Below, in pieces: positions 24,991 to 62,190 of a stretch of DNA of 64,000 bases. A program made the translations under genes and the position numbers. The notes below the pieces were generated by a model, which saw nothing but the letters and a program-made list of their open reading frames with translations, was not told where the DNA came from and did no database searches. The stretch's first letter is position 1. The number at the start of each line of letters is the position of its first letter. Origin of the DNA: Schmidtea polychroa (lineage: Eukaryota); assembly GCA_044892525.1 (NCBI GenBank), contig CM097885.1, positions 222,518,001-222,582,000 of the forward strand, given 5' to 3'.

Positions 24991-27819
24991 CTATGTCAAA
25001 AATATAGAACTTACATCTTGATAGATATTGTCTACTTGTAATTTACAAAGTAATGTTTCGAAATTGGAATTTTGATCGTTTTGATGGAAAGCGTTAGAGG
25101 ATGAACTTGAATTACAATAAAGAGGATCAAGAATCAGTTTCATTGAATCTTCAATGATATTCTGATTAAATGCATCGTTATCTGTTACTAGATCTAAAGG
25201 AATATCGTAGGACTTTTTAGAATCTTTTTGGTTTTTAATATCCTTGATTTTCTCATCTTTTCGACAATTATTTGTAACAGCCGAGTGACCGGAATTTCTG
25301 TACATACATCTTTTTCTGTAGCAAAAATAAAAAATAAACACCACTAGCACAATAGATATCAATGAAGAAATCCCAATAATCGAAATCATTACTGGAAATG
25401 TGAGTGATGACGATAATGGAAATTGTAAGTACGACCTATCATGTCCCATTATGTACACAATTAAACTTTGTGAAGTATGAATATTTTTGGAATTTGCGTC
25501 GATTGCTTGAAGCTGAAGGGTTAGTTCACCTGGTTTTATGTTAAGTCTTTTGAAAGTTATTTCACCAGTCACGTGGTTTATTTCAAAAATGTCATTATGA
25601 TTATGGAGAAAGTAGTGTACCACATTATACTTATCACTGTCATTATCGACGGCTCTCACTCTTGTTAAAACTGAATCGCGGATGTTTTGTAAAGATATGT
25701 TCATTACATTGTCACGAATGTTTGGATATTGCCAGACTGGACCGTTATCATTTGTGTCAACTACATGAATATAAAATCTTTGGATATTACTTAAAGGAGG
25801 TTTTCCACTATCTGTTACTTTAACTGTGATTGAATACAAATCACACTCTTCATAGTCTAAGGTCACGTTAGAATAGATGATTCCAGTTGTGGGATTTAGT
25901 TCAAAAAGCTTTTCATTAATAGACCTTACATTGTTTTCGGAAGTTGTATTGAGCAAATAGTAATTAAGTTTGGAGTTGATTTCACTATCTTCGTCGAATG
26001 CTTGGATTTTTCCAATTTCATAGAAACCTTTTAAATTTTCTTGGACTTCAAATCTATTGGAAGCCAGTGAGAATTTCGGAACATTATCATTTACATCTAT
26101 CACATAGACAACAATTCTGGCGGAGGAAGTGAAGGATTTTATTCCACGATTGATTGCTAAAACGTTGAAAGACAACCTTTTAATTTTTTCATAATCTAAA
26201 ACAATTTTTGTTGAAATTATTCCGGAATTGTCTATTGTAAACCAGGTTGAACCTGGATCGGTGAGATCCAAGATTCTAGATTGGGTTAAATCTCGATCGT
26301 ATACTTTCACTGTTTTAACATTGGTTTCCGGGGATGTGTTTTCTTTGATGTATATTTCATATAAGTTTTGATCGAATGTTGGTTGGTATTCGTTTTCGTC
26401 TTTGATGTGGATCTCGACTTTTGTGGTCGCTGAATTTTGCGGTTCACCGTGATCATAACACAAAATATTTAGTGAAAAATATTTTGTCTCTTCGGCATCA
26501 AACGATTTGTCGGCAAGCAATTTATAAATACTTCTTTCATTTGTTTCAATAACGTTTATGATTTTGAAATAATTCAAGTAATTCTTATTAATAATTGACT
26601 GAATGTGACAAGAACATCGGGAATTTTCACCTTGATCGAGATCAGACACTGTTATAAAGGCTAATTGAAATGGAATTCTATTATTTTCTGACACTTCAAT
26701 AACAGTGTGATTCTGAAATTTAGAAATGAGAAAAGAATCTATCGGATTGACGAGAATCACCGGACTGTGGTTGTTTACATCGACGACGTGAAGAAAGATC
26801 CATGTTCGTCCGATCAAAGGATTCGGAGCTTTGTCAATGGCTTTGATAGAAAATTTAAATTTTGTCGGTTGATTAAATCTTTTAATAATTGAAATTTGAC
26901 CGGTTTTTTTGTTGATAGAAAAATACTTTTTCACTTCGTCCGCACCGGAGCTAAAACTGTATTCTAATTCACCAAATTCTCCATCGTCTTTATCGAAAGC
27001 TTTCGGAGAGAGAACAATTTCCCCGATTTGAGTATCTTCGTTTATAATTGCCGTATAATTCGATCTGTAAAACATGGGGGATTCATCATTTTCATTCGTA
27101 ATATTAATTATTATAGTTTGATTTCCACACAATGAAGGCTTACCATTGTCACAGGCTATTAGGATCACTTTATAGTGTTTTGTATTTTCATAATCAATAG
27201 GTCGTTCTAAAATAAGTTTCAAAGGGTTTTGTGATAAACTGAAAGGGAAATTAGATCTGTGTAAATGTTGAATCCCATATTGAATGGGTTGGAATTGATC
27301 TGAATCTAAGTCGACAGGTTCCTCTAAATTGATCTGAGTCTTCACTTTTGAAATTTCACTCAAAGATATCGACAAAAAAATTTGTCGAAATGCTGGCATA
27401 TTGTCATTGATGTCTATTATTTCTATATTGACATAAATCCACATCAGTTTATTTACAGAAACTATTTGGAGAATGGTACAGTTCTCATTTCTCTTTATCA
27501 TATTCAACTGGCATACGGATTCTCGGTCGATCTCAGAAATTGTCACCAAGTCTCCTGAGGAATTGTTGATTTTGAAAAGATTTTTCAAAGATCTCCCATA
27601 TCGGTTATGTGAGAGAGAGTGCGGTTCTTTGAAATCTTCTGAGTTTTCCAGTTGAAGTTGCACGTTACTGAAAAAGAATAATTGTGCAGATAAATTGATA
27701 TTTCCAACAATCGTTCCAATTGAGCAATTTTCAACAAGTTTGAAGGAAATTTCTTTCAGCATGGCTTTCGAAGAAAACAAAAGGTTCAGAATCAAAACTA
27801 GAAATCCTACTATCCACAT
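24991..27819 (-). CDS. Protocadherin, delta-like: signal peptide, 7 cadherin repeats, TM segment, cytoplasmic tail; large first coding exon
   Basis: 942-aa uninterrupted ORF with a hydrophobic N-terminus. Repeat linkers DINDNMP, NENDESP, DVNNHSP, DENEYQP, DVNDNVP and DTNDNGP define 7 EC repeats. EC1 has DRESVC...C (protocadherin-type Cys pair). TM segment is VMISIIGISSLISIVLVVFIFYFCY. Confidence 0.97.
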   Translation of the reverse strand: MWIVGFLVLILNLLFSSKAMLKEISFKLVENCSIGTIVGNINLSAQLFFFSNVQLQLENSEDFKEPHSLSHNRYGRSLKNLFKINNSSGDLVTISEIDRESVCQLNMIKRNENCTILQIVSVNKLMWIYVNIEIIDINDNMPAFRQIFLSISLSEISKVKTQINLEEPVDLDSDQFQPIQYGIQHLHRSNFPFSLSQNPLKLILERPIDYENTKHYKVILIACDNGKPSLCGNQTIIINITNENDESPMFYRSNYTAIINEDTQIGEIVLSPKAFDKDDGEFGELEYSFSSGADEVKKYFSINKKTGQISIIKRFNQPTKFKFSIKAIDKAPNPLIGRTWIFLHVVDVNNHSPVILVNPIDSFLISKFQNHTVIEVSENNRIPFQLAFITVSDLDQGENSRCSCHIQSIINKNYLNYFKIINVIETNERSIYKLLADKSFDAEETKYFSLNILCYDHGEPQNSATTKVEIHIKDENEYQPTFDQNLYEIYIKENTSPETNVKTVKVYDRDLTQSRILDLTDPGSTWFTIDNSGIISTKIVLDYEKIKRLSFNVLAINRGIKSFTSSARIVVYVIDVNDNVPKFSLASNRFEVQENLKGFYEIGKIQAFDEDSEINSKLNYYLLNTTSENNVRSINEKLFELNPTTGIIYSNVTLDYEECDLYSITVKVTDSGKPPLSNIQRFYIHVVDTNDNGPVWQYPNIRDNVMNISLQNIRDSVLTRVRAVDNDSDKYNVVHYFLHNHNDIFEINHVTGEITFKRLNIKPGELTLQLQAIDANSKNIHTSQSLIVYIMGHDRSYLQFPLSSSLTFPVMISIIGISSLISIVLVVFIFYFCYRKRCMYRNSGHSAVTNNCRKDEKIKDIKNQKDSKKSYDIPLDLVTDNDAFNQNIIEDSMKLILDPLYCNSSSSSNAFHQNDQNSNFETLLCKLQVDNIYQDVSSIFLT

Positions 27820-27972
27820 GAAAACATTGATTCCTGTTTAATTGTTGGCAATTATCATGGGGCATAAAAACCAATTTAATAAATTTTTTTTTAATTTTCT
27901 TATAACCTAATTAATTATAGTCCTTGTATTTTTGAAAAAAAATAAAATTGATCTTTTTTTTTGTTTTAATTT

Positions 27973-37720: not shown

Positions 37721-37949
37721 NNNNNNNNNNNNNNNNNNNNNNNNNNNNNNNNNNNNNNNNNNNNNNNNNNNNNNNNNNNNNNNNNNNNNNNNNNNNNNNN
37801 NNNNNNNNNNNNNNNNNNNNNNNNNNNNNNNNNNNNNNNNNNNNNNNNNNNNNNNNNNNNNNNNNNNNNNNNNNNNNNNNNNNNNNNNNNNNNNNNNNNN
37901 NNNNNNNNNNNNNNNNNCAATTTAAAATTTCTAGATTGAAGTTAATACT

Positions 37950-38415
37950 TTTATAACCAAAATTTATATTTTATAGCTGAAATTTATACTTTATGTTTAA
38001 AATTTTGGATTAATTTATATTATATAGTTGAAATTTGTATTTTATATTTAACATTTTGGTTCAATTTATATTTTATAGTTGAAAGTTATACTTTATATTT
38101 AAAATTTTAGATTAATTTATATTATATAGTTGGAATTTATATTTTATTTTAAAATTTTGGTTTAATTTATATTTCATAGTTGAAATTTATATTTTATATT
38201 TAAAAATTTAGATTAATTTATATTATATAGTTGGAATTTATATTTTATTTTAAAATTTTGGTTTAATTTATATTTCATAGTTGAAATTTATATTTTATAT
38301 TTAAAATTTTAGATTAATTTATATTATATAGTTGGAATTTATATTTTATTTTAAAATTTTGGTTTAATTTATATTTCATAGTTGAAATTTATATTTTATA
38401 TTTAAAATTTTGGAT
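37950..38415. repeat. AT-rich minisatellite: about 50-bp monomers organised into a 101-bp higher-order dimer
   Basis: gattaatttatattatatagttggaa recurs at 38110, 38211 and 38312, alternating with the variant gtttaatttatatttcatagttgaaa. Confidence 0.9.
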
Positions 38416-39066
38416 TTTAAAACTTTGACTTTGCAGTTGAGGTTCATGCTAAAAATTCATATCTAATTATTATATTTTAATAAAACTTTCATGTAACGAT
38501 CTGTAATTTATGGTTTTGTAAGCAAATTTTACCCATGACAATTTAGAATTCCTACCTTTACGATCAAAATTGATATATTTAGGTATCAAGTACTTTCGCA
38601 ATTTTAGTTTATGTTTCTAATTATCTATAATTCATAAAAATTTCCATCCATTTCTGTAACAGCATTTATCTACAGCCACTGGTAATTCCCATTTTCAGCG
38701 ACGAATTTATCCATAACCATCCTTTAGAAGGGCCCAACTATAACTATTCTTCAACACTTCATAAGATTATGACGGGATTCTATGTTCTAAAGGTATATGA
38801 TTCGTATTCAGCTAATTGCATTTAATGAAAAATCCAAGCCCTGCCAATACATCTATCGAACCTTAGTTACGAACTAAATCATTATGAAAATTCTTTACTT
38901 TATTCAAAAATTTATCTAGGTTCGACAATGTATGGGCAGAGTCAATTTTTAGGAACTCAACCGCCTATACTAAGTGTGATTTGTTGAATTTTAGGTATGA
39001 GATCTACTCAATTTACCAACCTTAGGGTATTTTTGTATCACTGATTTTAAATGTTGACTTTAAATA

Positions 39067-50160: not shown

Positions 50161-50418
50161 ATATATTGATTAATAGTTATGTTAAATAATTAAAAAAATA
50201 ATTAAAATAATATTTTTTAAAGTATTTTAAAAGTTTAAAATAATTGTTTGTTGAAAATGTTGAATGTCACTTTAAAGAATATAATATAATAATGACCATT
50301 TATAAATATTATCTGATTGTTTTTTTTAATTTTAAGCTTTGCTCATCATATATGAATCATATATTTATTAAACATTTCATTTATATTCATTTAAGATTAA
50401 TTATTAAAATTGTGTAAT

Positions 50419-51005
50419 AGTAGTAGTGTAAATAGTAGTAGTGTAATAGTACCCCCTCCCTCGGGTGGGAAAATTAAAAAAATATTTTCAAGGTCAAATT
50501 TTAAACAAAGACATATAACACATCAAAGTCATTGAAACAAAGACCATGACTCATCCGATGACTCATTCCAGGTCATTCTCAAGATCGTATGACTCATCCG
50601 ATGATTCATCAATAAATTATTATTATTTTTAAAAATATTATTAATTGAGCTAGCGGTGACCTACTTTTTGGCACTACTATCATCTGATTCCATTGAACGA
50701 TGGTTCATTTTAAAGCCCACTACAAGACCTTTCGAATGAGGTAAGTACCACTATTTTTAAAGCTATTGACAATTTTCCAAGACCATGTTTCAATGTCTTA
50801 TTATTAATTTTCAAAATATTATTATTATTTTATTATTATTTTCAAAAATATCCTTTTTCCAAGGTCATATTATTTTTCAAGGACATATTATAATTTTTCA
50901 AGGTCATATTTTAAAATTTTATATTTTCAGAATTCCCGTCAACGGAATTTATTAAACGATGGTTCATTTAAAGCCCACTGCAAGACCTTTTCGAATGTGC
51001 TATAG
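50419..51005 (+). repeat. Left TIR of Polinton A
   Basis: Colinear with the reverse complement of 54812-55373. It contains two internal copies of aacgatggttcatt(t)taaagcccact.caagacct(t)ttcgaatg. Confidence 0.9.
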
Positions 51006-51498: not shown

Positions 51499-53590
51499 TC
51501 AATATAACCCATCATCAAAATCCGGACTATTTCCATCAAAAAGTGGCCCAACTTCAAATATTTGGTCATCATCCGGAACATCAATCCCTAAATAGTGACC
51601 ATATGCCAGACTGGAATTAGGCCCCACCCATAGTCTCTTGTAATCGTTGTTCGACAAGGCTATTTTACTATTCTTAAAAGTAAAGAGCTGGTGAATACGG
51701 GTTCTTATTTTCGTTTGTGTCACTCTATATACTACGCTGTTGTTGTAGCAGTCTAAATAAGAATGGTGCCCTATCTCAATATTTAATAACTTGACTCCCT
51801 TAGCCCTGAGTGTTGCCTTATCTCCTAACAAACTATAACACTTAGGGCGCAAGAAATCCTACTCGCTATAGCCCAGCCCTTTACTTTTGTCCTTAAATTT
51901 GCCTTAAATTTGCCTATTAAATTTGCCTAAATTCAAACCTGTACTTGGTCAATTCCACATACTGTAGTTGATACATTCTTAGTTTAGACAGGTCTAGCAT
52001 TGATTGTCCTATGTAACTAAGCCTGTCTAAACATATGGAATCTTTATTCAGATGGGCGGCAATCAAGTCATCATCAATTTTGATTGATTTCCTGAAAGTC
52101 GTCTTTGAGGCATATAGAATCATCTTTTCAGTTGAATTGCTTAGCCTCAAATTCATCCGCTTTTTCAGATTCTCCACCGATTTCCCATACAAGCTAATAT
52201 TAAATAATTTTTTTAGATCCCTATATAATTCACATGTGGAAATAACCCGTAAGTCTGTGTTTATATATATATCTATGTACATTATTAATAATAGCCCCCA
52301 ATTCTATATACATCTTGAGAAGCCGCCAATGAAGAACATGGTTCTTCTTTGGCCAATGCGTGAGCATCAGCTTCTCAACTTTCGAATTTGCCAGGCACAT
52401 CTTTTCCTATGCAATCGAAATATCATTCAGAAACTCATGCAAACAATCAGGGATATCAATATCGACCTTCATAGTATAGCCATATGGAAGATTATCGATA
52501 TCAGCATTCTTACATTCATTCAAGACATCATCCAGATTGTCATACACCCATTGAAAGTCAGCATACGGCAGGTTTTGGCTAAGAGCCCAACCAGATTATT
52601 TACATCAATGTATAAGAGTTCTGTGTCTTCAGAACGTGCAACATAATGTTTATTAAATGTTAACCCACCCCGTAACCTTCCTTCATAGAAATTATACATT
52701 TCCATCTCCTGCAGAAGTTCTATGGGTTCCGTTAATGTCATAAGCACTGAGGCCCATGACATACCGGGGATTCCATAAAAATTAAGAGGCTCGAGATCAT
52801 TGTAAGCAATTGCCTTTTCACGGAATTGCTGAAAATAATCTGCGAGGAGAAACACGTCTAACTTCAGGTAAGTTAACATGTAATCTAACATGTTGTTGCA
52901 GATTTGCTAAGTCCAAATAACTTGTGCAAAAAGAACTTGGGCACACTCATCATTAGACACAGAATTCCAGATAAGAGGTAGTTCAAGAGTCGATTACAGA
53001 TCCTCAAGAAATGTGGCGAAGTCATAAGGAAAAATACCTTTGGCTCGAACTATTGCGTCATCAAAGACAGAAGAAGTTAAAGGCAAATCGGAAAGTGTCT
53101 TAACCGCTTTTGCTAAAGATGAATTAACAAACTGCATGCTGTCAATAAAACGAACAGGCAATTTGTTAATATACGCTATGACAGAGATGAATTTTTCCGT
53201 AGTAGTCGGAATAATATTTAATTCCCAAGAAGGAAAATTATTCAGACCATACTTCAAAATATGATGGAGATCATACTCCCTCAAATTATGATAGACAATA
53301 GGTAACTGTCTCTGAATTCGCCGAGACACATTACAATTCCTACAAGCAGCACCAAAATACTTACCTGAGAAGTGGCAATGGTCCCTTACTCTATGTATAA
53401 TAGATTTCTTGCAAAGATAACAGGTCCTGGAATATCGAAAAGCCCGCTCTTCAGTGAAAGATTAGGTTTGAATAGGTTTTCGCCCATTCATTTCGTAATA
53501 CGGCAGGACAATTGTGACAGCAATTTCCTCAACCTTACGAAGGAAAGACAACACACAATCCTCACCAACAAACTCATAATAAAATCTAGA
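51499..53590 (-). pseudogene. Protein-primed DNA polymerase B (pPolB) of Polinton A
   Basis: CYLCKK...VRDHCHFSGKYFGAACRNCN; LPIVYHNLREYDLH; RFIDSMQF...SSL; KGIFPYD; YLKLDVFLLAD; RGG...LLYIDVNNL; LYGKSVEN; YIGQSMLDLSK; LRPKCYS...AKGV. Frameshifted; the YxDTDS segment is missing. Confidence 0.95.
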
Positions 53591-53615
53591 TTTATTACAA
53601 TTATTAATTAATAAC

Positions 53616-53920
53616 ATGCCTGCTGTTATTGGCAAGCGTTAGTAATGACTACAGAATAGGACCAAAAATAATAAATAATAATTAATTACCGAATTATTTA
53701 TTATTTAGAAGATTTAGGATTCGATGAAACTGATAAGGAAGTCACTGAAGAAATTGGTGTTGATGATGACGACGACACTCAAGAAATTGATGAGGAACCT
53801 ATAGATGAACCTAATGATACGGAAAATATTATGAATGATAACGATTGTAACGATTGTGTAGATCATGTCGTTGAAAATGTTATGAAATGTGGAGATGACG
53901 ATTGCGAGTGTGTTAATTAA
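53616..53920 (+). CDS. Unknown small acidic protein with C-terminal Cys cluster (copy 1), probably spliced
   Basis: Open frame 53708-53920: EDLGFDETDKEVTEEIGVDDDDDTQE...NDCNDCVDHVVENVMKCGDDDCECVN*. Acceptor tttAG at 53708. Candidate exon 1 starts at ATG 53616 with a weak phase-1 donor at 53638. Confidence 0.6.
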
Positions 53921-53983: not shown

Positions 53984-54477
53984 TTAAAATTTACAAATAA
54001 TATACAAGATGGCAACACCTGTTGCAAGTTTAATATAGTTTTTAAACTTCGTATTTTGCTGATCGATTTACCTGGCATTTCGGGCCAGTTCATTGAGTGT
54101 ACCCCATCCACCATTGGCTTCTATCCATGGAGTAAACTTGGACTTGATTATCTAAATATGAATATTATTAATATATAGATAATAACTAAAAACTTACTTC
54201 TTGAGACCACTATTAGTAATTCTCTGAGTCCCATGAACTTTTATCTATAATAATTTTCATAAAAGTGAACCCTACAATTATTCGGGTTCACTTCATTTCG
54301 TCATCGAATAGGCAATTGAAGATTCTATTGAAGCAGAACTTCTTCGTCTCCAGAAAATCCATATCCAGTATGTTCTGGTAATCAATATGATTCCCTTAAA
54401 TGATTTCTTCAGTCTTCCGTAAGGATTGTATTGACGAGCTCATTTAGCAAGTTGTCGATAAAATTAGGTTGCGACAT
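53984..54477 (-). pseudogene. Bcl-2-family gene (copy A) inside Polinton A, two exons
   Basis: Exon 1: MSQPNFIDNLLNELV...FNRIFNCLFDDEMK*TRIIVGFTF...WSQE (BH1-like). A 46-nt GTAAGT...TTTAG intron (54197-54152) follows. Exon 2: IIKSKFTPWIEANGGW (BH2)...YIKLATGVAILYIICKF* (hydrophobic tail). One frameshift and five in-frame stops. Confidence 0.85.
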
Positions 54478-54600
54478 TTATTTGTTCAATAATTTAAAAT
54501 ATAATGTTTTATTTATACTACTACAGAATTGTGTGCAATATGATTCTGATTGGTTAATAGACTATAAATGTAAAATATATACGTTTTGATTTGATACAAC

Positions 54601-54812: not shown

Positions 54813-55373
54813 ATATATATATATATATATATATATAACTCATTCGAAAGGTCTTGCAGTGGGCTTTAAAAGGAACCATTGTTCAATCAAATACATTGGC
54901 GGGAACTCTGACAATTTAAATTATTAAAATATGACTCTGAAAAAAATAATAATATTTTGAAAATTAATATTATGACCTCGAAACATGGTCTTCGAAAATT
55001 GTTAATATCTCTAAATATAATAAGATATTTATAATTCATTCGAAACGTCTTGCAGTGGGCTTTAAAATGAACCATCGTTCAATGAAATCAGATGACAGGA
55101 ACAATAACTTCTGGGGTGCCATAAAATAGGTCACCGCTGGCTCAATTAATAGTATTTTTAAAAATAATAATAATTTATTGATGAGTCATCGGATGCGTAA
55201 TACGACCTTGAGAATGTCCTTGAATGAGTCATCTGGTGAGTCATATGACTTTGGATGAGTCGTCGCGTGAGTCATGGTCTTTGTTTCTATGACCTTGATG
55301 AGTCATATGTCTTTGTTTAAAATTTGACCTTGAAAAAAAAATTTATTTCCCACCCGGGGAGGGGTGGACTACT
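54812..55373 (-). repeat. Right TIR of Polinton A
   Basis: Ends ...GGGGAGGGGTGGACTACT (55373). Reverse complement aligns with the left TIR. Confidence 0.9.
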
Positions 55374-56149
55374 GACCCAGTGGTGACCAATTCATCTACT
55401 TATAGTAAAGTAAGGAAAATAATTTACGGATAAACTTAGTATTGAAAAATTCAAATAAAATAAATTTGTAAATCTAAATAACAGCAAGTCGTTAAATTAG
55501 AATAAAAAATATATTCTCATAATTAAAAGAATTTCATTCATTTTAAATAAAGTTACTATGAAAATAGTGTAAAAATTTTTTTTCAAAATTTTTCAAAGTA
55601 AAACAAACAATTTTAAAATTTCCAATTTCATTTAAACAAAATCAATTGAAATATTTTTCAAAAATTAATTCCCTAATAATGTGGTCGATTCTCGTAGATT
55701 TTTATTGCCATTAACAATTGATCCTAATGAGTAAATTATTTGTTTGTATTGGGCAAGTTTCCATATAATGATTATGAACATCAATACGATTTGCAACAAT
55801 CACCTCTGAATCCCTGTTCGAAATCATCCAACATACAATTAGTGCTTTGTAAGTAAAACAAACAAAATTATTATATTTCTAAATGAAAGTATTAATTTTT
55901 GTTTTCATTTTTTATTAATATATTCGGAGTTTTATTACTAATATTTTTATAAATTTAATTTTATTTTGTAAATATCAATGCATTGTCCAATTTATTTCTG
56001 ATTTAAAATAATTATTAATTCCTTTATAATTTGTTTAAATCATAGATTCGCTATAATTCAGTAATTGTTAACCTGGGTCACTTGTCGCCTTTAATTATTG
56101 TCGTTTTCTTTAAATGCTATTTTTTTCAAATCCATCATGAAAATGAGTT

Positions 56150-57329: not shown

Positions 57330-57490
57330 TATACAATCCATCGGTTTCTGAGCAAGTTATAAGGATATCTTTATCATAACCAAAAGCAGAATCATCACGT
57401 ATATTTATTTTTATATTGTTTATACATGAGGTTGAGACAGGTAAATACGTGGAATTTTCTATGGTGATTTCTACAACTTCATCCTGTTCT
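57330..57490 (-). pseudogene. Penton (minor capsid) C-terminal fragment
   Basis: EVVEITIENSTYLPVSTSCINNIKINIRDDS, homologous to NNSTYLPTIIKTIDSISFKIVDQ in the 29.3-kb penton. Confidence 0.65.
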
Positions 57491-57529
57491 TGTAGATTTC
57501 AATTGATTGTATTACTTTACTAAATTTAT

Positions 57530-58100
57530 TTCTGATATCCATGTCGGTTTTTGATACCCATGCTACTTGACATAGTATTGTTTATCCTTACCTATCTTTT
57601 TAGTTTTCAATATTTTATGAATTCTAAATACTTTTGGCGAAGGAATAACTTTTAATTCTTGTTCAAAAATTTAACCATCAACCTTTCCATTATTATAGTC
57701 TTTAATGATATACATACTGGATAGTATTGATTTTTGAGATTCTAAAAACATCATTATTCTAGTTTGTATCGAATTTTTTTATGAATGGAGAAGCATTAAT
57801 TTTAATAATTCTAACATGATCAACCATTTTATATTTAGGATTTTTAATTTTTTCAATCTTTTTCGAAAGCTGTAAATCAATAGATTGTTTTGATGAAATA
57901 CCTATATGTCTCAAGCCTTTCAAACCTTGGTGCGACGAATGATCATAACCATATATAGTTTGAGGCAAAGCATTAATCCATGTCTTATTACCTTGATGCG
58001 CAAACAATTCATTCACTTTTTCGAGTGGTAAAATAGTTGTACAAAGTATTCAGATTTCCATACTATTGTTGAAGGAATTATAAACGATGTAAAGGATTTG
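57530..58100 (-). pseudogene. Polinton retroviral-like integrase C-terminal half with chromodomain-like tail
   Basis: KTWINALPQTIYGYDHSSHQGL...KNPKYKMVDHVRIIK...FIKKFDTN, then LKDYNNGKVDG*IFEQELKV...FRIHKILKTKKIGKDKQYYVK*HGYQKPTWI. Confidence 0.85.
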
Positions 58101-58149
58101 ATTTTTTCTCTAACAATTTCTTCAAGTATAACGATTTTTGTAACGAGGA

Positions 58150-58476
58150 TTTGCTCGAATATTTATCTACATGATGGTAATTGTTATTTATTTTAAATTT
58201 TGTTTTTATTTTTATTTAGAAACTATGCTAAACGTGTTGATTGATAAAATCAAAGTTTTTTATCCAAACTTGAACAATTCCTTAATGTATTGTGCTCCAG
58301 AAGTTGTGTTTTACAAATTTTGTGAAATAACTAGAATAAATGTCATAGAATTAATTCATATGGATCATTCTACGATTGCATGTTGCACTGACGATGTTGA
58401 AAATTGTGATTTTTGTACAAATAATATACGGAATACTTGTGGGGATGATAGTTGTACATGTTTTGTGAATCTATAA
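58150..58476 (+). CDS. Unknown Cys-tail protein (copy 2), spliced
   Basis: 43-nt phase-1 GT-AG intron (58177-58219). Exon 2 is uninterrupted: ETMLNVLIDKIK...DDVENCDFCTNNIRNTCGDDSCTCFVNL*. The start of exon 1 is not determined. Confidence 0.65.
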   Translation, partial: FARIFIYMMVIVIYFKFCFYFYLETMLNVLIDKIKVFYPNLNNSLMYCAPEVVFYKFCEITRINVIELIHMDHSTIACCTDDVENCDFCTNNIRNTCGDDSCTCFVNL

Positions 58477-58760
58477 AAATGATAAATACTTTATGTATTA
58501 CTTGTTGAATTGCATAAAAGGTATTGTTGTAATATAAAATATGCATGTATAAAATTATATTAGTTTTGTGATAATATTACCTTACTAACCTACAACCTTT
58601 AAAAATCCTTTATTTGCATACAATAAATCATTTAAGACTTTGTTAATTAGCATAAAATATATTAGTTGATCACGTTTTGATCATATCTGTCATTTAAAAC
58701 CTTTTTACAATAGAATTAGTATAAATATCTTGTTCAAATCATTACTGATTACAACTAAAA

Positions 58761-59325
58761 ATGGATTATCAAATTACAAGTTTGTTGTTCTTTGCAAATA
58801 TTCCATTTAATAGATTTTTAATTTAGGAGTATTGAAGAGAAAAAAATGTTGATGCTGCTCAAGAATTTGGAAAATGGAAATTTATAGAAGAGACATTATC
58901 TTTGGAAACCTTATTCATGGTTCAAGTTGATACAAAAAAGCCTGTAGAAATTGTACAATACAAACAAAATTATTTATATTGTCCAATTTCTTATATATTT
59001 AAGCTAAGTTTTTATAAATTACTTTGGATTTGATTATTTTATTGTTAGGAACCATTAACTCTTGAAAAATGTTTTTATAAAGTGCAATTTTCAAAAATCA
59101 AGTTAAACGATAAGATCAAATTGGGACAATTTTTTCAGAGAATGAACAAAAATATAGAATTCAATGAAGAATAAATGTTTATCAAATGCGATTTGGACGT
59201 AATTCCCAGTGAAGAGATGAGTAAAATAACTTGCATGGTTATAGTACTCATTCAAGGATATAATATAAGCAGAAAAGAAATAAAACCGATTTGGAAGATT
59301 ATAAAAGCTTAAGAAAATTTTGACG
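58761..59325 (+). pseudogene. Unknown spliced gene (about 150 aa) within Polinton B
   Basis: Long nearly open frame NVDAAQEFGKWKFIEETLSLETLFMVQVDTKKPVEIVQYKQNYLYCPISYIFK|EPLTLEKCFYKVQFSKIKLNDKIKLGQF... Two intron-like segments: 58780-58826 (GT-AG, 47 nt) and 59004-59048 (CTAAGT...TTAG, 45 nt, donor apparently mutated). Confidence 0.45.
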
Positions 59326-59436
59326 ACGATTGTTGTATAGTTTCAATCCTATTTTAATAAGTCTTTGGTTAATTGGTCTTTTTAAATAATAATGTCATAA
59401 CTTTTATAAAAATAACTAAATCAAGTTTTAAATTTA

Positions 59437-59828
59437 TTAATTATCACATGTGCAGTTTTGATCTTTACAATTTCCTTTCATCATATTTTAACAACATGAT
59501 CAATACAATTAGGAAAATTATTAGATTCATCTTCTTGTTTAGGTTCATTTGGTGATTTATCAGTTGTAGAATTCTCAATACATGACTTAATTTCTTCACT
59601 AGGTAAATCATTACATTCATAATCATTTGCGTGCTTGCTTTTTTCTTTATTAATTTCATCGTCTGATTACGGTGATTTTAATTTCTCTTGAACATTCATA
59701 AATTCGCTAATTTTTACATTAGACATTTCCTCTAATTTATCAATCAAAAATTTGATAATATATGCTAATTAAAAAAATAATTAAAGATTAAAAAAATCAT
59801 ATTTTACCTTTTTCGACATGGTTGACAT
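59437..59828 (-). pseudogene. Unknown Cys-tail protein (copy 3), spliced
   Basis: MSTMSKK, then a 43-nt GT-AG intron (59807-59765), then YIIKFLIDKLEE...EDESNNFPNCIDHVVK/MMKGNCKDQNCTCDN*. One stop and two 1-nt frameshifts. Confidence 0.7.
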
Positions 59829-59866
59829 AATTTCAAATGAAAAATAATTTTGTATATACCTTAATT

Positions 59867-60061
59867 CAGTGTTTCTCAAACTATGGGTCGCGAAAGAATT
59901 TTTGGTGGGTCGCGATGACTTATGGAAAGATCTACAAATATAAATTTTGGAAGTTTAAGCCTTTTAAATTTATTTAATCTTTGTCATGTGGGTCGCAATA
60001 AAATTTTTGGCATGAAATGTCAAAAATTTGGGTCGTGATCAAAAAAGTTTGAGAACCACTG
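59867..60061. mobile_element. hAT (Charlie/Buster-like) MITE, 195 bp
   Basis: TIRs CAGTGTTTCTCAAAC / GTTTGAGAACCACTG. Perfect 8-bp TSD CCTTAATT (59859-59866 and 60062-60069). Confidence 0.96.
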
Positions 60062-60114
60062 CCTTAATTTGATGAAGTATTATTTAAACAATAACAAACA
60101 TTTACCAAGATTTA

Positions 60115-60657
60115 TTAAAGTTTTAGATACACTTTAATAAATGTATATACAACTCCAAATCCAGTCATTAGTTTGAAAAAAATCTTTTAAATTTTCACAT
60201 TTGACATCATTCTCGTTTGATTTTGTAACGAGTTCAAACATCATAATCCATCCATCATGATTATCGACCCATGACAAAATTTTTGATTCAATAATCTAAA
60301 TAATGAGGATAATAATAATATCAAGTTAATCATCAAAATAATACATCTCTGCAGACCATTGAAAATAATTTTCAAGTCTGAGCCGACTTCTCTAAAATAT
60401 GTTTCACACCTGAAACCTATAATAATTCGTTACCATTTAATTTTATCATCGAATAATGTATAAAATATTTCCTCGAATAATTTTTGTTTGTTCAATTGTC
60501 TCTCTCAATTGATAATAGTGTTGTACTCGATACGATTATCTTCAACGATTTTTTCTGAGCAATTAACAAGAAATTGCAGATTATTGATCACCTCGTTAGT
60601 TTCTTTGTTACAGACAAGATCATTTAACACGTCAATCATAAATTTCGTTTACTTCAT
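60115..60657 (-). pseudogene. Bcl-2-family gene (copy B) inside Polinton B, two exons
   Basis: Exon 1: TKFMIDVLNDLV...LFEEIFYTLFDDKIKW*RIIIGF...ENYFQWSAE. An intron of about 49 nt (60344-60296) lies at the same position as in copy A. Exon 2: IIESKILSWVDNHDGW...KLMTGFGVVYTFIKVYLKL*. Stops and frameshifts present. Confidence 0.82.
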
Positions 60658-61934
60658 TTATAAATAATTGTTGAAATTTTGGTATATTTATATTATTTGT
60701 ATTAATAAAAGAATATGACATAAAAGAAAAATTAATTTTAATAATATTCAACTTTTAATTTTAATTTACAAACTACAGCGCCAGCCCCTTCCTGGCAATG
60801 GGTGTCACTGATGATTTTAATCTTTGTATTTTGAATTATGTACATTTACATGTTTTGTGGTGAAATGTTGATTTAAAAAATGGTGTAAGTTGTGAGAGAA
60901 AAGTTTAAAATTTTGTTTTTGGGTATTTTAAAATTTGGGAAATTTTGAGGAATTTATTTTTGGGAATTTTCTGAGTTGTGAAAATCTTGTAAATATCTTA
61001 TATCTTATACGTGTGATTTTTTATTAATCAAAAGTAGTAGATGGTATATATTCCTCCAAGTATTTTTATTGATTTTTTCTAAGATGACTAAGATGTATTT
61101 CCAAGTATTTTTTATATATAAAATTTATTTCTATAATAAAGTGGTGTGACCTTCATATTAAAGTACTTGGAGTTGACCTACATATTTTTAAAAAAATTGT
61201 CTAAGTATTTTATCAAAGCTTTTGTTCATTGTCCCACCATGTGTTGAAAAATATGAATTTATTTCTATAATAAAATGTTTTCTATGTTTGATAATATATA
61301 AAAATTGTTATATTATGGCATTTGATGCTGAAGTTATTCATTGTTTCGTTATGTGTTGAAGCATACGATTTTAATTCTATAATATAAGACTGGAGTGATT
61401 ATCATAATATATAAAAGTTATTATATTATGGCATGACCTACATTTTAATTTACAGGCTTTGGAGCTCATTTCCATGGAAACTAGGCATTTTTATATATAA
61501 ACACCATATATTTTCGTGACCTACATAAAATTCTGAGTCGGCCTAGATATTTTCCAGGGTGGGGGTGGATACTTATTTTTAAAAAAATATTTTAATTAAT
61601 TATTATTTTTGAAATATCTCATTCAGGGTACCCACCACAGATTTTATATTATTTTATTTGTATTTGTCTCATTATTTGTCATTTTCACATACCTGTTTTA
61701 ATTCATTTTTTTACTTTATTTATTAATTTTTGAATTTAAATAAGTCTTGTCCTTTTTATCGATTTGCACTCGATTCTCTGTGTATTTACGTTTCTTTTGC
61801 ATCATCCTAGACAACACCTGACATATTTAATTACTATTTATATTTATATTCTAAAAAAGCTATTTATTTATTATTCATAACTATTTCTTAATTAACCCAA
61901 GTTATCGATCATGAACCATAACATGCAAAAGTTT

Positions 61935-62190
61935 ATCCAACTTACAAATTTTAATTTAGGAAGAACGAATAGGTGTTACGAGAAACGATATTAATTTCAC
62001 AGATGAATTCATTGCAATATTTTTGTAACTCTTCATCATGGTATTAGTGCATATTAAGTTTAGATAGATCCAGTAACTTGGTCTATTCAAATAAATCAAT
62101 TCTTTATACCCAAATACACCTATTTTACCTTTCAACAAAAGATATATTGAAAGGTGTAACAGTGAGTTCTGGTATTTTGGACTTGTTAGT
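61935..62190 (-). pseudogene. Third pPolB fragment (palm region), outside the element B terminus
   Basis: KELIYLNRPSY / LLDLSKLNMH*YHDEELQKYCNEFICEINIVSRNTYSFFL, homologous to the SICLDRLSYIGQSMLDLSKLRMY segment of pPolB A and including a decayed DTDS (NTYS). Confidence 0.75.

What the first reader, a model, noticed from the sequence alone, without database searches (positions are those of the whole stretch)
53984..54477. A Polinton carries a spliced Bcl-2-family (candidate anti-apoptotic) gene
Seen: between the two TIRs of Polinton A, on the pPolB strand, a two-exon gene (46-nt GTAAGT...AG intron) encodes a BH1-like segment (FNRIFNCLFDDEMK[W]TRIIVGFTF), a BH2 motif (FTPWIEANGGW) and a hydrophobic C-terminal tail. 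The ORF track misses it because of splicing and decay. Established: adenovirus E1B-19K, EBV BHRF1, KSHV ORF16 and ASFV A179L are viral Bcl-2 proteins. The canonical Polinton gene set (pPolB, integrase, ATPase, protease, major and minor capsid) does not include one. Inference: this Polinton lineage acquired a host Bcl-2 and may suppress apoptosis of the cells in which it replicates. Caveats: this copy is dead, and BH1 reads K-W-T-R rather than NWGR, so groove function is not guaranteed. I recall a Bcl-2-like domain reported in planarian giant LTR elements; that is unverified here and the relationship should be tested.
Basis: partly seen in the sequence, partly recalled or inferred. Interest (0 to 1): 0.92.

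Follow-up and report, generated by a model that had tools for sequence, protein, structure and literature searches.

The report
Polinton captured planarian survival gene bcl2-1
A virus-like jumping element present in hundreds of copies in a flatworm genome carries its own spliced Bcl-2 gene, most similar to the worm's essential survival gene bcl2-1 and likely taken from it, and it likely uses the gene to keep host cells alive while it copies itself; the copy in this window is dead.

Summary
The window copy (46-nt GT-AG intron, 54197-54152) is dead and lies in a 4.9-kb internally deleted Polinton. Its family is intact elsewhere: 411 exact motif matches; 19 of 20 sampled copies lie beside core Polinton genes and 12 of 20 are open. 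Full elements are 16-17 kb with terminal repeats and 6-bp target duplications. Open copies pass the Pfam Bcl-2 cut-off, fold like Bcl-2 and show dN/dS 0.09-0.13. One contig of a run guessed to be RNA holds the spliced junction. All 12 Polinton proteins tested are closest to planarian bcl2-1, whose knockdown lyses worms and which also lacks NWGR. They share a 5-residue deletion with it, lack its intron, and four lineages share another intron. Anti-apoptotic activity is inferred, not tested. New here: a traced donor, selection, splicing, and a host open to RNAi. Interest 0.5.

The parts
54198..54477 (-). Bcl-2-like gene, exon 1 (helices to just past BH1); broken in this copy by a frame break near 54413 and stops
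   Evidence: 80-86% amino-acid identity to exon 1 of an open copy
54152..54197 (-). 46-nt GT-AG intron, phase 0, between helix 6 codons; same site in four Polinton lineages, not the host bcl2-1 intron site
   Evidence: spliced junction in one contig of run X7
53984..54151 (-). Bcl-2-like gene, exon 2 (BH2 and C-terminal hydrophobic tail); premature stop at 54070-54068
54507..54556 (-). CCAAT word (54556-54545) and TATA-like word (54518-54507): predicted host RNA polymerase II promoter
   Evidence: both kept in two open subfamilies, CCAAT also in the intronless lineage; function inferred
54834..55400 (.). Terminal inverted repeat next to the Bcl-2 gene, starting AGTAG at 55400 on the minus strand
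50410..51004 (.). Other terminal inverted repeat, with degenerate ACT-repeat end
51499..53638 (-). Decayed C-terminal 60% of the protein-primed DNA polymerase B
   Evidence: Pfam DNA_pol_B_2 E 2.3e-5 and 0.012, both under the cut-off; 54-62% identity to residues 553-1299 of a full-length copy
53700..53917 (+). Remnant of the acidic ORF that follows the Bcl-2 gene tail to tail in full elements; the large internal deletion lies just left of it
   Evidence: function unknown
60118..60657 (-). Second decayed Bcl-2-like gene of another Polinton lineage (C), with an intron at the same site
   Evidence: 48-50% identity to lineage C rows, E 1e-36; splice sites
57385..62076 (-). Second Polinton remnant around that gene: integrase 57515-58022, putative minor capsid 57385-57489, pPolB piece 61957-62076
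   Evidence: its ends were not mapped

Best explanation
The window holds a dead copy of a spliced Bcl-2-family gene carried by a large family of Polintons; the gene was likely captured once from the host's bcl2-1 lineage and likely works as a pro-survival Bcl-2 that keeps the host cell alive while the element replicates. Shown: Polinton context, open copies, purifying selection, Bcl-2 family membership, nearest host relative. Shown weakly: splicing and polyadenylation (one contig each, in a run only guessed to be RNA). Inferred steps: (1) capture through a processed mRNA, since all Polinton copies lack the ~3-kb host intron after GGW; (2) one later gain of a 43-52-nt intron in the ancestor of lineages A, C, D, E; (3) transcription by host polymerase II from the CCAAT/TATA promoter about 0.9 kb inside the terminal repeat, probably early; (4) tail-anchoring in the mitochondrial outer membrane; (5) binding of host Bak/Bax-type or BH3-only proteins in the groove, blocking cytochrome c release that linear viral DNA and integrase breaks would otherwise trigger.
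For: Context: 411 exact matches of an acceptor-plus-exon-2 motif, 0 for the reversed control. Every fifth of the first 100 listed (20 of 411, all contig C1): 19 of 20 have a core Polinton gene within the 10 kb fetched, 20 of 20 an element gene, 12 of 20 both exons open. Of 10 top DNA hits extended to 20 kb, 9 show ATPase, integrase, capsid and pPolB ORFs and 7 have both termini with matching 6-bp flanks, 16.2-17.0 kb apart; 2 of the 7 lie in TAA repeats and are uninformative. Family: two copies read through their in-frame intron with X score 34.6 and 33.1 bits against a Pfam cut-off of 31.4; model pLDDT 85.9; the top 18 of 50 VIA rows are Bcl-2-fold proteins, best Z 10.7 (rmsd 5.0, 107 aligned) and 10.6 (rmsd 2.3, 98 aligned). 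Selection: dN/dS 0.092, 0.127, 0.133 among three subfamilies. RNA: contig 11 of run X7 joins exon-1 end codons directly to the exon-2 start; another ends in 21 A's 8 bases after the stop; the joined motif has 0 genomic matches with up to 1 mismatch. Donor: 12 of 12 Polinton rows score best against bcl2-1 (62-93 bits; other host paralogues 40 or less, Burro 33 or less); BH1-W to BH2-W spacing is 39 in bcl2-1 and lineages A, C, D (38 in B) against 42-45 in the 11 other rows measured; the host gene is single copy, has no Polinton gene within 20 kb, is 89% identical to ACW83059.1, which is Smed bcl2-1 (PMC4993586 supplement row). bcl2-1 RNAi gave total lysis (PMC4993586 passage); planarian BCL2 is stated to be required for cell survival (PMC3566077 passage). 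No BH3 killer-type motif by a simple pattern in the A, C or D rows.
Against: No activity, binding or localisation was measured. Lineage A is only 23-29% identical to bcl2-1, so function may have drifted; some poxvirus Bcl-2-fold proteins inhibit NF-kB instead (PMC7022251 passage). BH1 lacks the glycine of NWGR. The fold model was built with an alignment full of Bcl-2 homologues, so it is not independent; only residues 2-115 aligned, Z under 13 can be a common helical arrangement, and the first, shallow model gave TM 0.2-0.36 with no E under 0.001. The branch uniting Polinton rows with bcl2-1 has only 82/98 and 86/98 support and also holds four unnamed proteins, and in the mixture tree the long Burro branch; Polinton monophyly is neither shown nor rejected (p-AU 0.53), nor is Polinton plus Burro rejected (p-AU 0.35). 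The trees are unrooted, so direction of transfer and intron gain versus loss rest on the host intron argument. RNA evidence is one junction contig in 1 of 5 different runs laid, of guessed type; X7 and X1 also hold intron-containing contigs. dS is near saturation in two of three pairs.
Confidence: 0.68

Rival explanations
1. The protein keeps the Bcl-2 fold but has been turned to another job, such as blocking autophagy or innate signalling, or acting on mitochondria without holding back Bak/Bax.
For: 23-29% identity of lineage A to bcl2-1; no NWGR; precedent in herpesvirus M11 and poxvirus Bcl-2-fold proteins (PMC7022251 passages).
Against: BH2, the hydrophobic tail (Kyte-Doolittle 1.38-1.66 against 1.39 in bcl2-1) and the donor's non-NWGR BH1 are all kept; the donor is a survival gene.
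Confidence: 0.17
2. The protein promotes death, as a dominant-negative bcl2-1 or pore former, to release particles late in the cycle or to poison cells that lack the element.
For: Adintoviruses carry other membrane-active proteins (PMC8502044 section 3.2); BAK, BAX and BOK appear among fold hits at Z 8.0-8.6.
Against: No BH3-type motif found; nearest relative is pro-survival; 12 of 20 sampled copies are open and at least some are transcribed, which a killer gene would make costly (inference).
Confidence: 0.06
3. The transfer ran the other way or from outside: an old virus-borne Bcl-2 gave rise to both the Polinton genes and the host's bcl2-1.
For: bcl2-1 does not group with the other host paralogues (p-AU 2.8e-5); it sits among Polinton rows, four unnamed proteins and, in one tree, Burro; other adintoviruses have Bcl2 genes.
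Against: The host gene has its intron straight after GGW; four other host paralogues show GT at that same place; this intron site is recalled as conserved in animal Bcl-2 genes (no call). An element-derived gene would have had to regain it.
Confidence: 0.07
4. A one-off insertion of a host pseudogene, or a passenger spread without function.
For: The window copy is dead; 8 of 20 sampled copies are broken.
Against: 411 motif matches, fixed place beside Polinton genes, five divergent lineages, dN/dS about 0.1, kept splice sites and promoter words.
Confidence: 0.02

Closest known systems
Bcl2 genes of adintoviruses (animal Polintons/Mavericks): Starrett et al. 2021, PMC8502044 (sections 3.2 and 3.4 read, supplement searched); UniProt A0A5H3CWZ2 'Bcl2, Branchiostoma lancelet adintovirus' (row)
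   Same: A Bcl-2 homologue as an accessory gene of a Polinton with pPolB, integrase, ATPase, protease and capsid genes.
   Different: There it is one sentence and three map labels; no flatworm terms were found in main text or stored supplement (file cut when stored, figures not seen). Here the gene is spliced, its donor is traced to a host gene with an RNAi phenotype, and selection is measured. The lancelet protein matched my first model only at E 2.0, so I saw no sign of close kinship; I did not have its sequence.
Schmidtea mediterranea bcl2-1 (ACW83059.1, FJ807655.1) and its single-copy orthologue in G000 (C1:268544056 onward, L062)
   Same: Same length class, short helix 5-6 region, non-NWGR BH1, BH2, tail; full-length alignment.
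   Different: Host gene has a ~3-kb intron after GGW and is single copy; Polinton genes lack it, are 23-48% identical, and lineages A, C, D, E have a short intron 16 codons earlier.
BCL2-like domain of planarian Burro giant LTR retrotransposons (PMC6431247 passages)
   Same: A Bcl-2 domain on a giant mobile element of the same host; many copies in G000, in long polyprotein frames.
   Different: Part of a polyprotein; lacks the 5-residue deletion (spacing 44) and scores 33 bits or less against Polinton rows. Its own best host match is also bcl2-1, but only at 30 bits; the relation is unresolved.
Viral Bcl-2 proteins of adenovirus (E1B-19K), herpesviruses (BHRF1, KsBcl-2, M11), ASFV (A179L), poxviruses, iridoviruses
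   Same: Fold (several among the top VIA rows); predicted role in delaying host cell death.
   Different: Those are tested proteins of free viruses; this one sits in integrated, inherited elements, keeps an intron, and is untested.

Membership tests
Polinton/Maverick | Protein-primed DNA polymerase B | tested here: met
   Window fragments hit DNA_pol_B_2 (E 2.3e-5, under cut-off); 1374-1453-aa open frames in full copies. The two full frames scanned returned only Endonuclease_7 in Pfam.
Polinton/Maverick | Retroviral-type integrase | tested here: met
   rve E 1e-7 (at cut-off) and 5.7e-6, with chromodomain, in full copies; deleted from the window element.
Polinton/Maverick | A32-like packaging ATPase | tested here: met
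   Pox_A32 30.5 bits, cut-off 22.8; deleted from the window element.
Polinton/Maverick | Adenovirus-type cysteine protease | tested here: met
   Peptidase_C5 27.2 bits, cut-off 21.3; deleted from the window element.
Polinton/Maverick | Double jelly-roll major capsid protein | tested here: met
   By language-model features only: top clusters DJR-like_dom, score 0.97. Pfam and PDB sequence search found nothing relevant.
Polinton/Maverick | Minor capsid protein | not tested
   A 350-362-aa ORF between integrase and major capsid is so labelled by position only; no Pfam hit.
Polinton/Maverick | Long terminal inverted repeats starting AG and 6-bp target duplication | tested here: met
   About 657-bp repeats, 98-99% alike in four young copies; matching 6-bp flanks in 7 of 10 pairs, 2 of them uninformative. 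Window copy: repeats yes, duplication not found.
Polinton/Maverick | Particle formation or transposition in vivo | not testable with these tools
   Near-identical copies (0-5 differences over the gene in 25 of 27) point to recent spread only.
Bcl-2 family (PF00452) | Profile score over the curated cut-off | tested here: met
   34.6, 33.1 (lineage A read through the intron with X) and 32.7 (lineage B) against 31.4.
Bcl-2 family (PF00452) | Helical Bcl-2 fold | tested here: met
   Top 18 VIA rows are Bcl-2-fold, Z 10.7-7.9, first unrelated row 7.9; residues 2-115 only; model not independent of the alignment.
Bcl-2 family (PF00452) | BH2 motif and C-terminal hydrophobic tail | tested here: met
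   PWIEANGGW; 17-residue hydropathy 1.38-1.66.
Canonical pro-survival Bcl-2 (Bcl-xL type) | NWGR in BH1 | tested here: not met
   KWTR (A), TWSR (C), KWSR (D), CWSK (B); the host survival gene bcl2-1 has RWSR.
Canonical pro-survival Bcl-2 (Bcl-xL type) | Binds BH3 ligands and blocks cytochrome c release | not testable with these tools
   No complex job was sent; needs bench assays.
Pro-apoptotic Bax/Bak/Bok type | BH3 motif in helix 2 | tested here: inconclusive
   A simple pattern found none in helix 2 of any Polinton row or in bcl2-1; the pattern is crude and missed the Bok-like host rows too.
Burro BCL2 domain | Domain inside a gypsy-type polyprotein between LTRs | tested here: not met
   Stand-alone two-exon gene inside terminal inverted repeats.

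The most novel reading that the evidence does not exclude
The integrated copies are expressed in ordinary worm tissue and form a second, element-controlled source of bcl2-1 activity. Stem or germ cells with active Polintons would then outlive their neighbours, so the element spreads by tilting cell competition inside a constantly regenerating animal; Polintons and Burro retrotransposons would both have taken up the same host survival switch.
Probability: 0.15. Interest if true: 0.85.

Novelty: new member of a known kind. Interest (0 to 1): 0.5.

Why it matters
Whether Polintons behave as viruses that must manage host cell death is open, and their Bcl2 genes have so far been map labels. Here the gene has a named host donor with a known knockdown phenotype, many open copies, selection and a hint of splicing, in an animal where RNAi and cell-death assays are routine, so the question becomes testable. 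It also gives a case of intron loss and likely gain during gene capture by a DNA element, and warns that Bcl-2 gene counts in planarian genomes are swollen by mobile copies (150 scored PF00452 matches of 909 candidates).

Tried and rejected
One-off pseudogene: rejected. Burro as donor: not favoured, not excluded. Intronless genomic source of the RNA junction: no match, though the run may be another individual. First fold, 11-row alignment: pLDDT 65.9, Foldseek best E 5e-3, TM about 0.3; superseded. Foldseek on the better model could not be run; VIA was. No sequencing run on record as RNA was listed; X9 laid nothing and X8 almost nothing, which is no evidence. An X1 contig skipping 1640-1759 with unknown letters between was not counted as a junction. 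Word-index searches found only 3 unnamed exon-1 relatives, 1 for the host gene, 0 for lineage B. No locus was found for unnamed relative P0012 in metagenome contigs, so whether it is element-borne is open; the viral-contig scan with alignment A2 did not run. Terminal repeats of lineage B were not found in two loci. The output was cut: L131 and L132 were not seen, L130 in part; 18 of the 18 seen have a Polinton gene match within 10 kb. Tree rows left out: two partial host genes, four near-duplicates and most unnamed hits (34 of 68 rows kept). Pellettieri 2010 and Bender 2012 were not held. Not in print: ten searches found no paper on a planarian Polinton Bcl-2; PMC11410931 has 0 hits for maverick, polinton or bcl in its main text, bioRxiv 10.64898/2026.10.13.758929 0 for bcl. 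Repbase, the Grohme 2018 paper and subscription journals were not searchable, and the figures of the adintovirus supplement were not seen; any of these could hold it. No complex prediction was sent: Bcl-2 with BH3 is a textbook pair and no host BH3 exon was in hand.

Full report
Observation. The described gene is in the window on the minus strand: ATG at 54477, a 46-nt phase-0 GTAAGT...AG intron at 54197-54152, and exon 2 with FTPWIEANGGW and a hydrophobic tail ending at 53984. It is dead: a frame break near 54413 and stops at 54398, 54290 (inside BH1), 54215-54210 and 54070. It lies about 0.9 kb inside one of two inverted repeats, 75-78% alike, that bound a 4.95-kb element holding only the last 60% of a decayed pPolB. 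The host is a planarian by inference: about 25% G+C and a gene 89% identical to S. mediterranea bcl2-1.

The family. A DNA search of G000 scored 40 of 1741 candidates. Of 30 loci returned, 24 have an open 303-nt exon 1, a 44-nt intron and an open exon 2; 4 are broken and 2 were not parsed. A motif across the acceptor and exon-2 start matches 411 places, its reversed control none. In a systematic sample of 20 of these, all from contig C1, 19 have a core Polinton gene within the 10 kb fetched, 20 an element gene, and 12 both exons open, with introns of 43-52 nt at one site. Ten top hits were extended: nine show the order terminal repeat, Bcl-2, acidic ORF, 141-aa ORF, TBP-like ORF, A32 ATPase, basic ORF, integrase, putative minor capsid, major capsid, protease, pPolB; seven have both termini with matching 6-bp flanks 16.2-17.0 kb apart, two of them in uninformative TAA repeats. 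In the young subfamily 25 of 27 copies differ at 0-5 positions over the gene.

Is it a Bcl-2? Exons 1 and 2 hit PF00452 in order. Two copies whose intron is in frame, read through with X, pass the cut-off. Best PDB sequence hits are Bfl-1/A1 and Bcl-xL at E about 5e-3; language-model neighbours are Bcl-2 clusters at 0.90-0.91, with a low recognition value. A shallow model was poor. A 98-row model reached pLDDT 85.9, and its top 18 VIA rows are Bcl-2-fold proteins, Z up to 10.7, over residues 2-115; this is not independent of the alignment. dN/dS among three subfamilies is 0.09-0.13, like the ATPase (0.12), with dS near saturation in two pairs.

Is it expressed? No run on record as RNA was listed. 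In run X7, guessed to be RNA, one contig (depth 18) carries 57 letters ending in exon-1 codons joined straight to the first base of exon 2, and another ends in 21 A's 8 bases past the stop, with AATAAA overlapping the last codons. The joined motif is absent from G000 with up to one mismatch. Intron-containing contigs occur in the same runs. This is one observation in 1 of 5 runs laid and should be treated as a good hint.

Where did it come from? A PF00452 search scored 150 of 909 candidates: host-type genes, Polinton genes and many domains in long frames of Burro type. One host gene, L062, is single copy, has no Polinton gene within 20 kb, has its second exon about 3 kb after GGW and is the orthologue of ACW83059.1, which the supplement of PMC4993586 lists as bcl2-1. 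All 12 Polinton rows score best against it and share its short helix 5-6 region (lineage E not measured). Five Polinton lineages were seen: A, C, D, E with the same short intron, and B without. Lineages D and E were seen only as decayed copies tied to Polintons by nearby gene matches. Trees put A, C, D, E together (84/98; 100/97 under the mixture model) and join them with B, the bcl2-1 group and four unnamed proteins at 82/98 or 86/98; Burro, a long branch, falls outside in one tree and inside in the other. Grouping bcl2-1 with the other host paralogues is rejected (p-AU 2.8e-5); Polinton monophyly (0.53) and Polinton plus Burro (0.35) are not rejected. The trees have no root. Capture from the host through an mRNA is preferred because the host gene keeps an intron at a site where four paralogues also show GT, a site I recall as conserved in animal Bcl-2 genes.

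How it likely works. CCAAT and TATA-like words upstream are kept between subfamilies, so host polymerase II likely makes a spliced, polyadenylated message for a protein of about 160 residues. Its tail matches that of bcl2-1 in hydropathy, so it likely anchors in the mitochondrial outer membrane. Planarians use Bcl-2-family control of cytochrome c release (PMC11463336 and PMC7022251 passages citing Bender 2012), and bcl2-1 knockdown lyses worms (PMC4993586 passage; PMC3566077 passage, which calls BCL2 'pro-apoptotic' in the same sentence that says it is required for survival). The donor lacks NWGR too, so the missing motif does not argue against a survival role. I put about 0.9 on a real, selected, bcl2-1-derived Polinton gene and about 0.7 on a pro-survival role; binding, location and timing are untested.

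What is known. PMC8502044 states that adintovirus homologues of Bcl2 and IAP were observed (section 3.2 read whole, section 3.4 read whole); its supplement has three Bcl2 map labels and no flatworm term in the stored text (file cut, figures not seen). A lancelet adintovirus Bcl2 is in UniProt. PMC6431247 confirms a BCL2-like domain in Burro (passages). PMC11957031 and 10.1101/2022.07.12.499685, on introns in and cargo of Mavericks, were seen as listings only. Pellettieri 2010, Bender 2012 and Grohme 2018 were not read. Ten searches found no report of a planarian Polinton Bcl-2. Earlier notes of this scan describe the same family, with TBP-like and Bcl-2-like genes, in other windows of this genome; I had reached that reading before looking, and a word search found nothing further.

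Verdict. Observation confirmed; interpretation right in substance, overrated in novelty. New member of a known kind, with a traced donor, intron turnover, selection and a testable host. Interest 0.5; novel case 0.15 probability, 0.85 interest.

Noticed in passing
window 60118-60657 (-), with 57385-58022 and 61957-62076: A second decayed Bcl-2 gene, lineage C, same intron site, inside a second Polinton remnant.
   Followed up: partly
L035:4465-4926 (-); also L074, L063 and most sampled elements: Full elements encode a 154-aa TATA-binding-protein-like ORF (Pfam TBP E 5e-15; dN/dS 0.25). A TBP label exists in a figure legend of PMC8502044, and earlier notes of this scan cover it.
   Followed up: partly
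L074:1429-1860 (+), L136-L140: Lineage B carries an intronless Bcl-2 gene, 45-49% identical to host bcl2-1, between a TBP-like gene and pPolB; it is one residue shorter at the site where the other lineages have their intron.
   Followed up: partly
L012:2119-2469 (-) and L012:2652-3074 (-): An acidic ORF with a C-terminal cysteine cluster and a 141-aa ORF, both conserved next to the Bcl-2 gene; no Pfam hit of note.
   Followed up: no
G000:C4:89.95-90.83 Mb (L051-L057): Seven near-identical host-type Bcl-2 genes with NWGR in a tandem cluster, no intron after GGW.
   Followed up: no
P0012, P0013, P0018, P0040: Unnamed Bcl-2 proteins that group with bcl2-1 and the Polinton rows; the P0012 cluster has 13 members on contigs up to 13.7 kb and may be element-borne.
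   Followed up: partly
L032, L036, L037, L038, L047: Several young elements sit inside or next to pPolB sequence of other Polintons, suggesting nested insertion.
   Followed up: no
window 24991-27837 (-): 948-aa open frame with cadherin-like repeats and a hydrophobic segment, protocadherin-like by eye; label recalled, not tested.
   Followed up: no
window 37945-38416: Tandem array with a period of about 51 or 101 bases.
   Followed up: no
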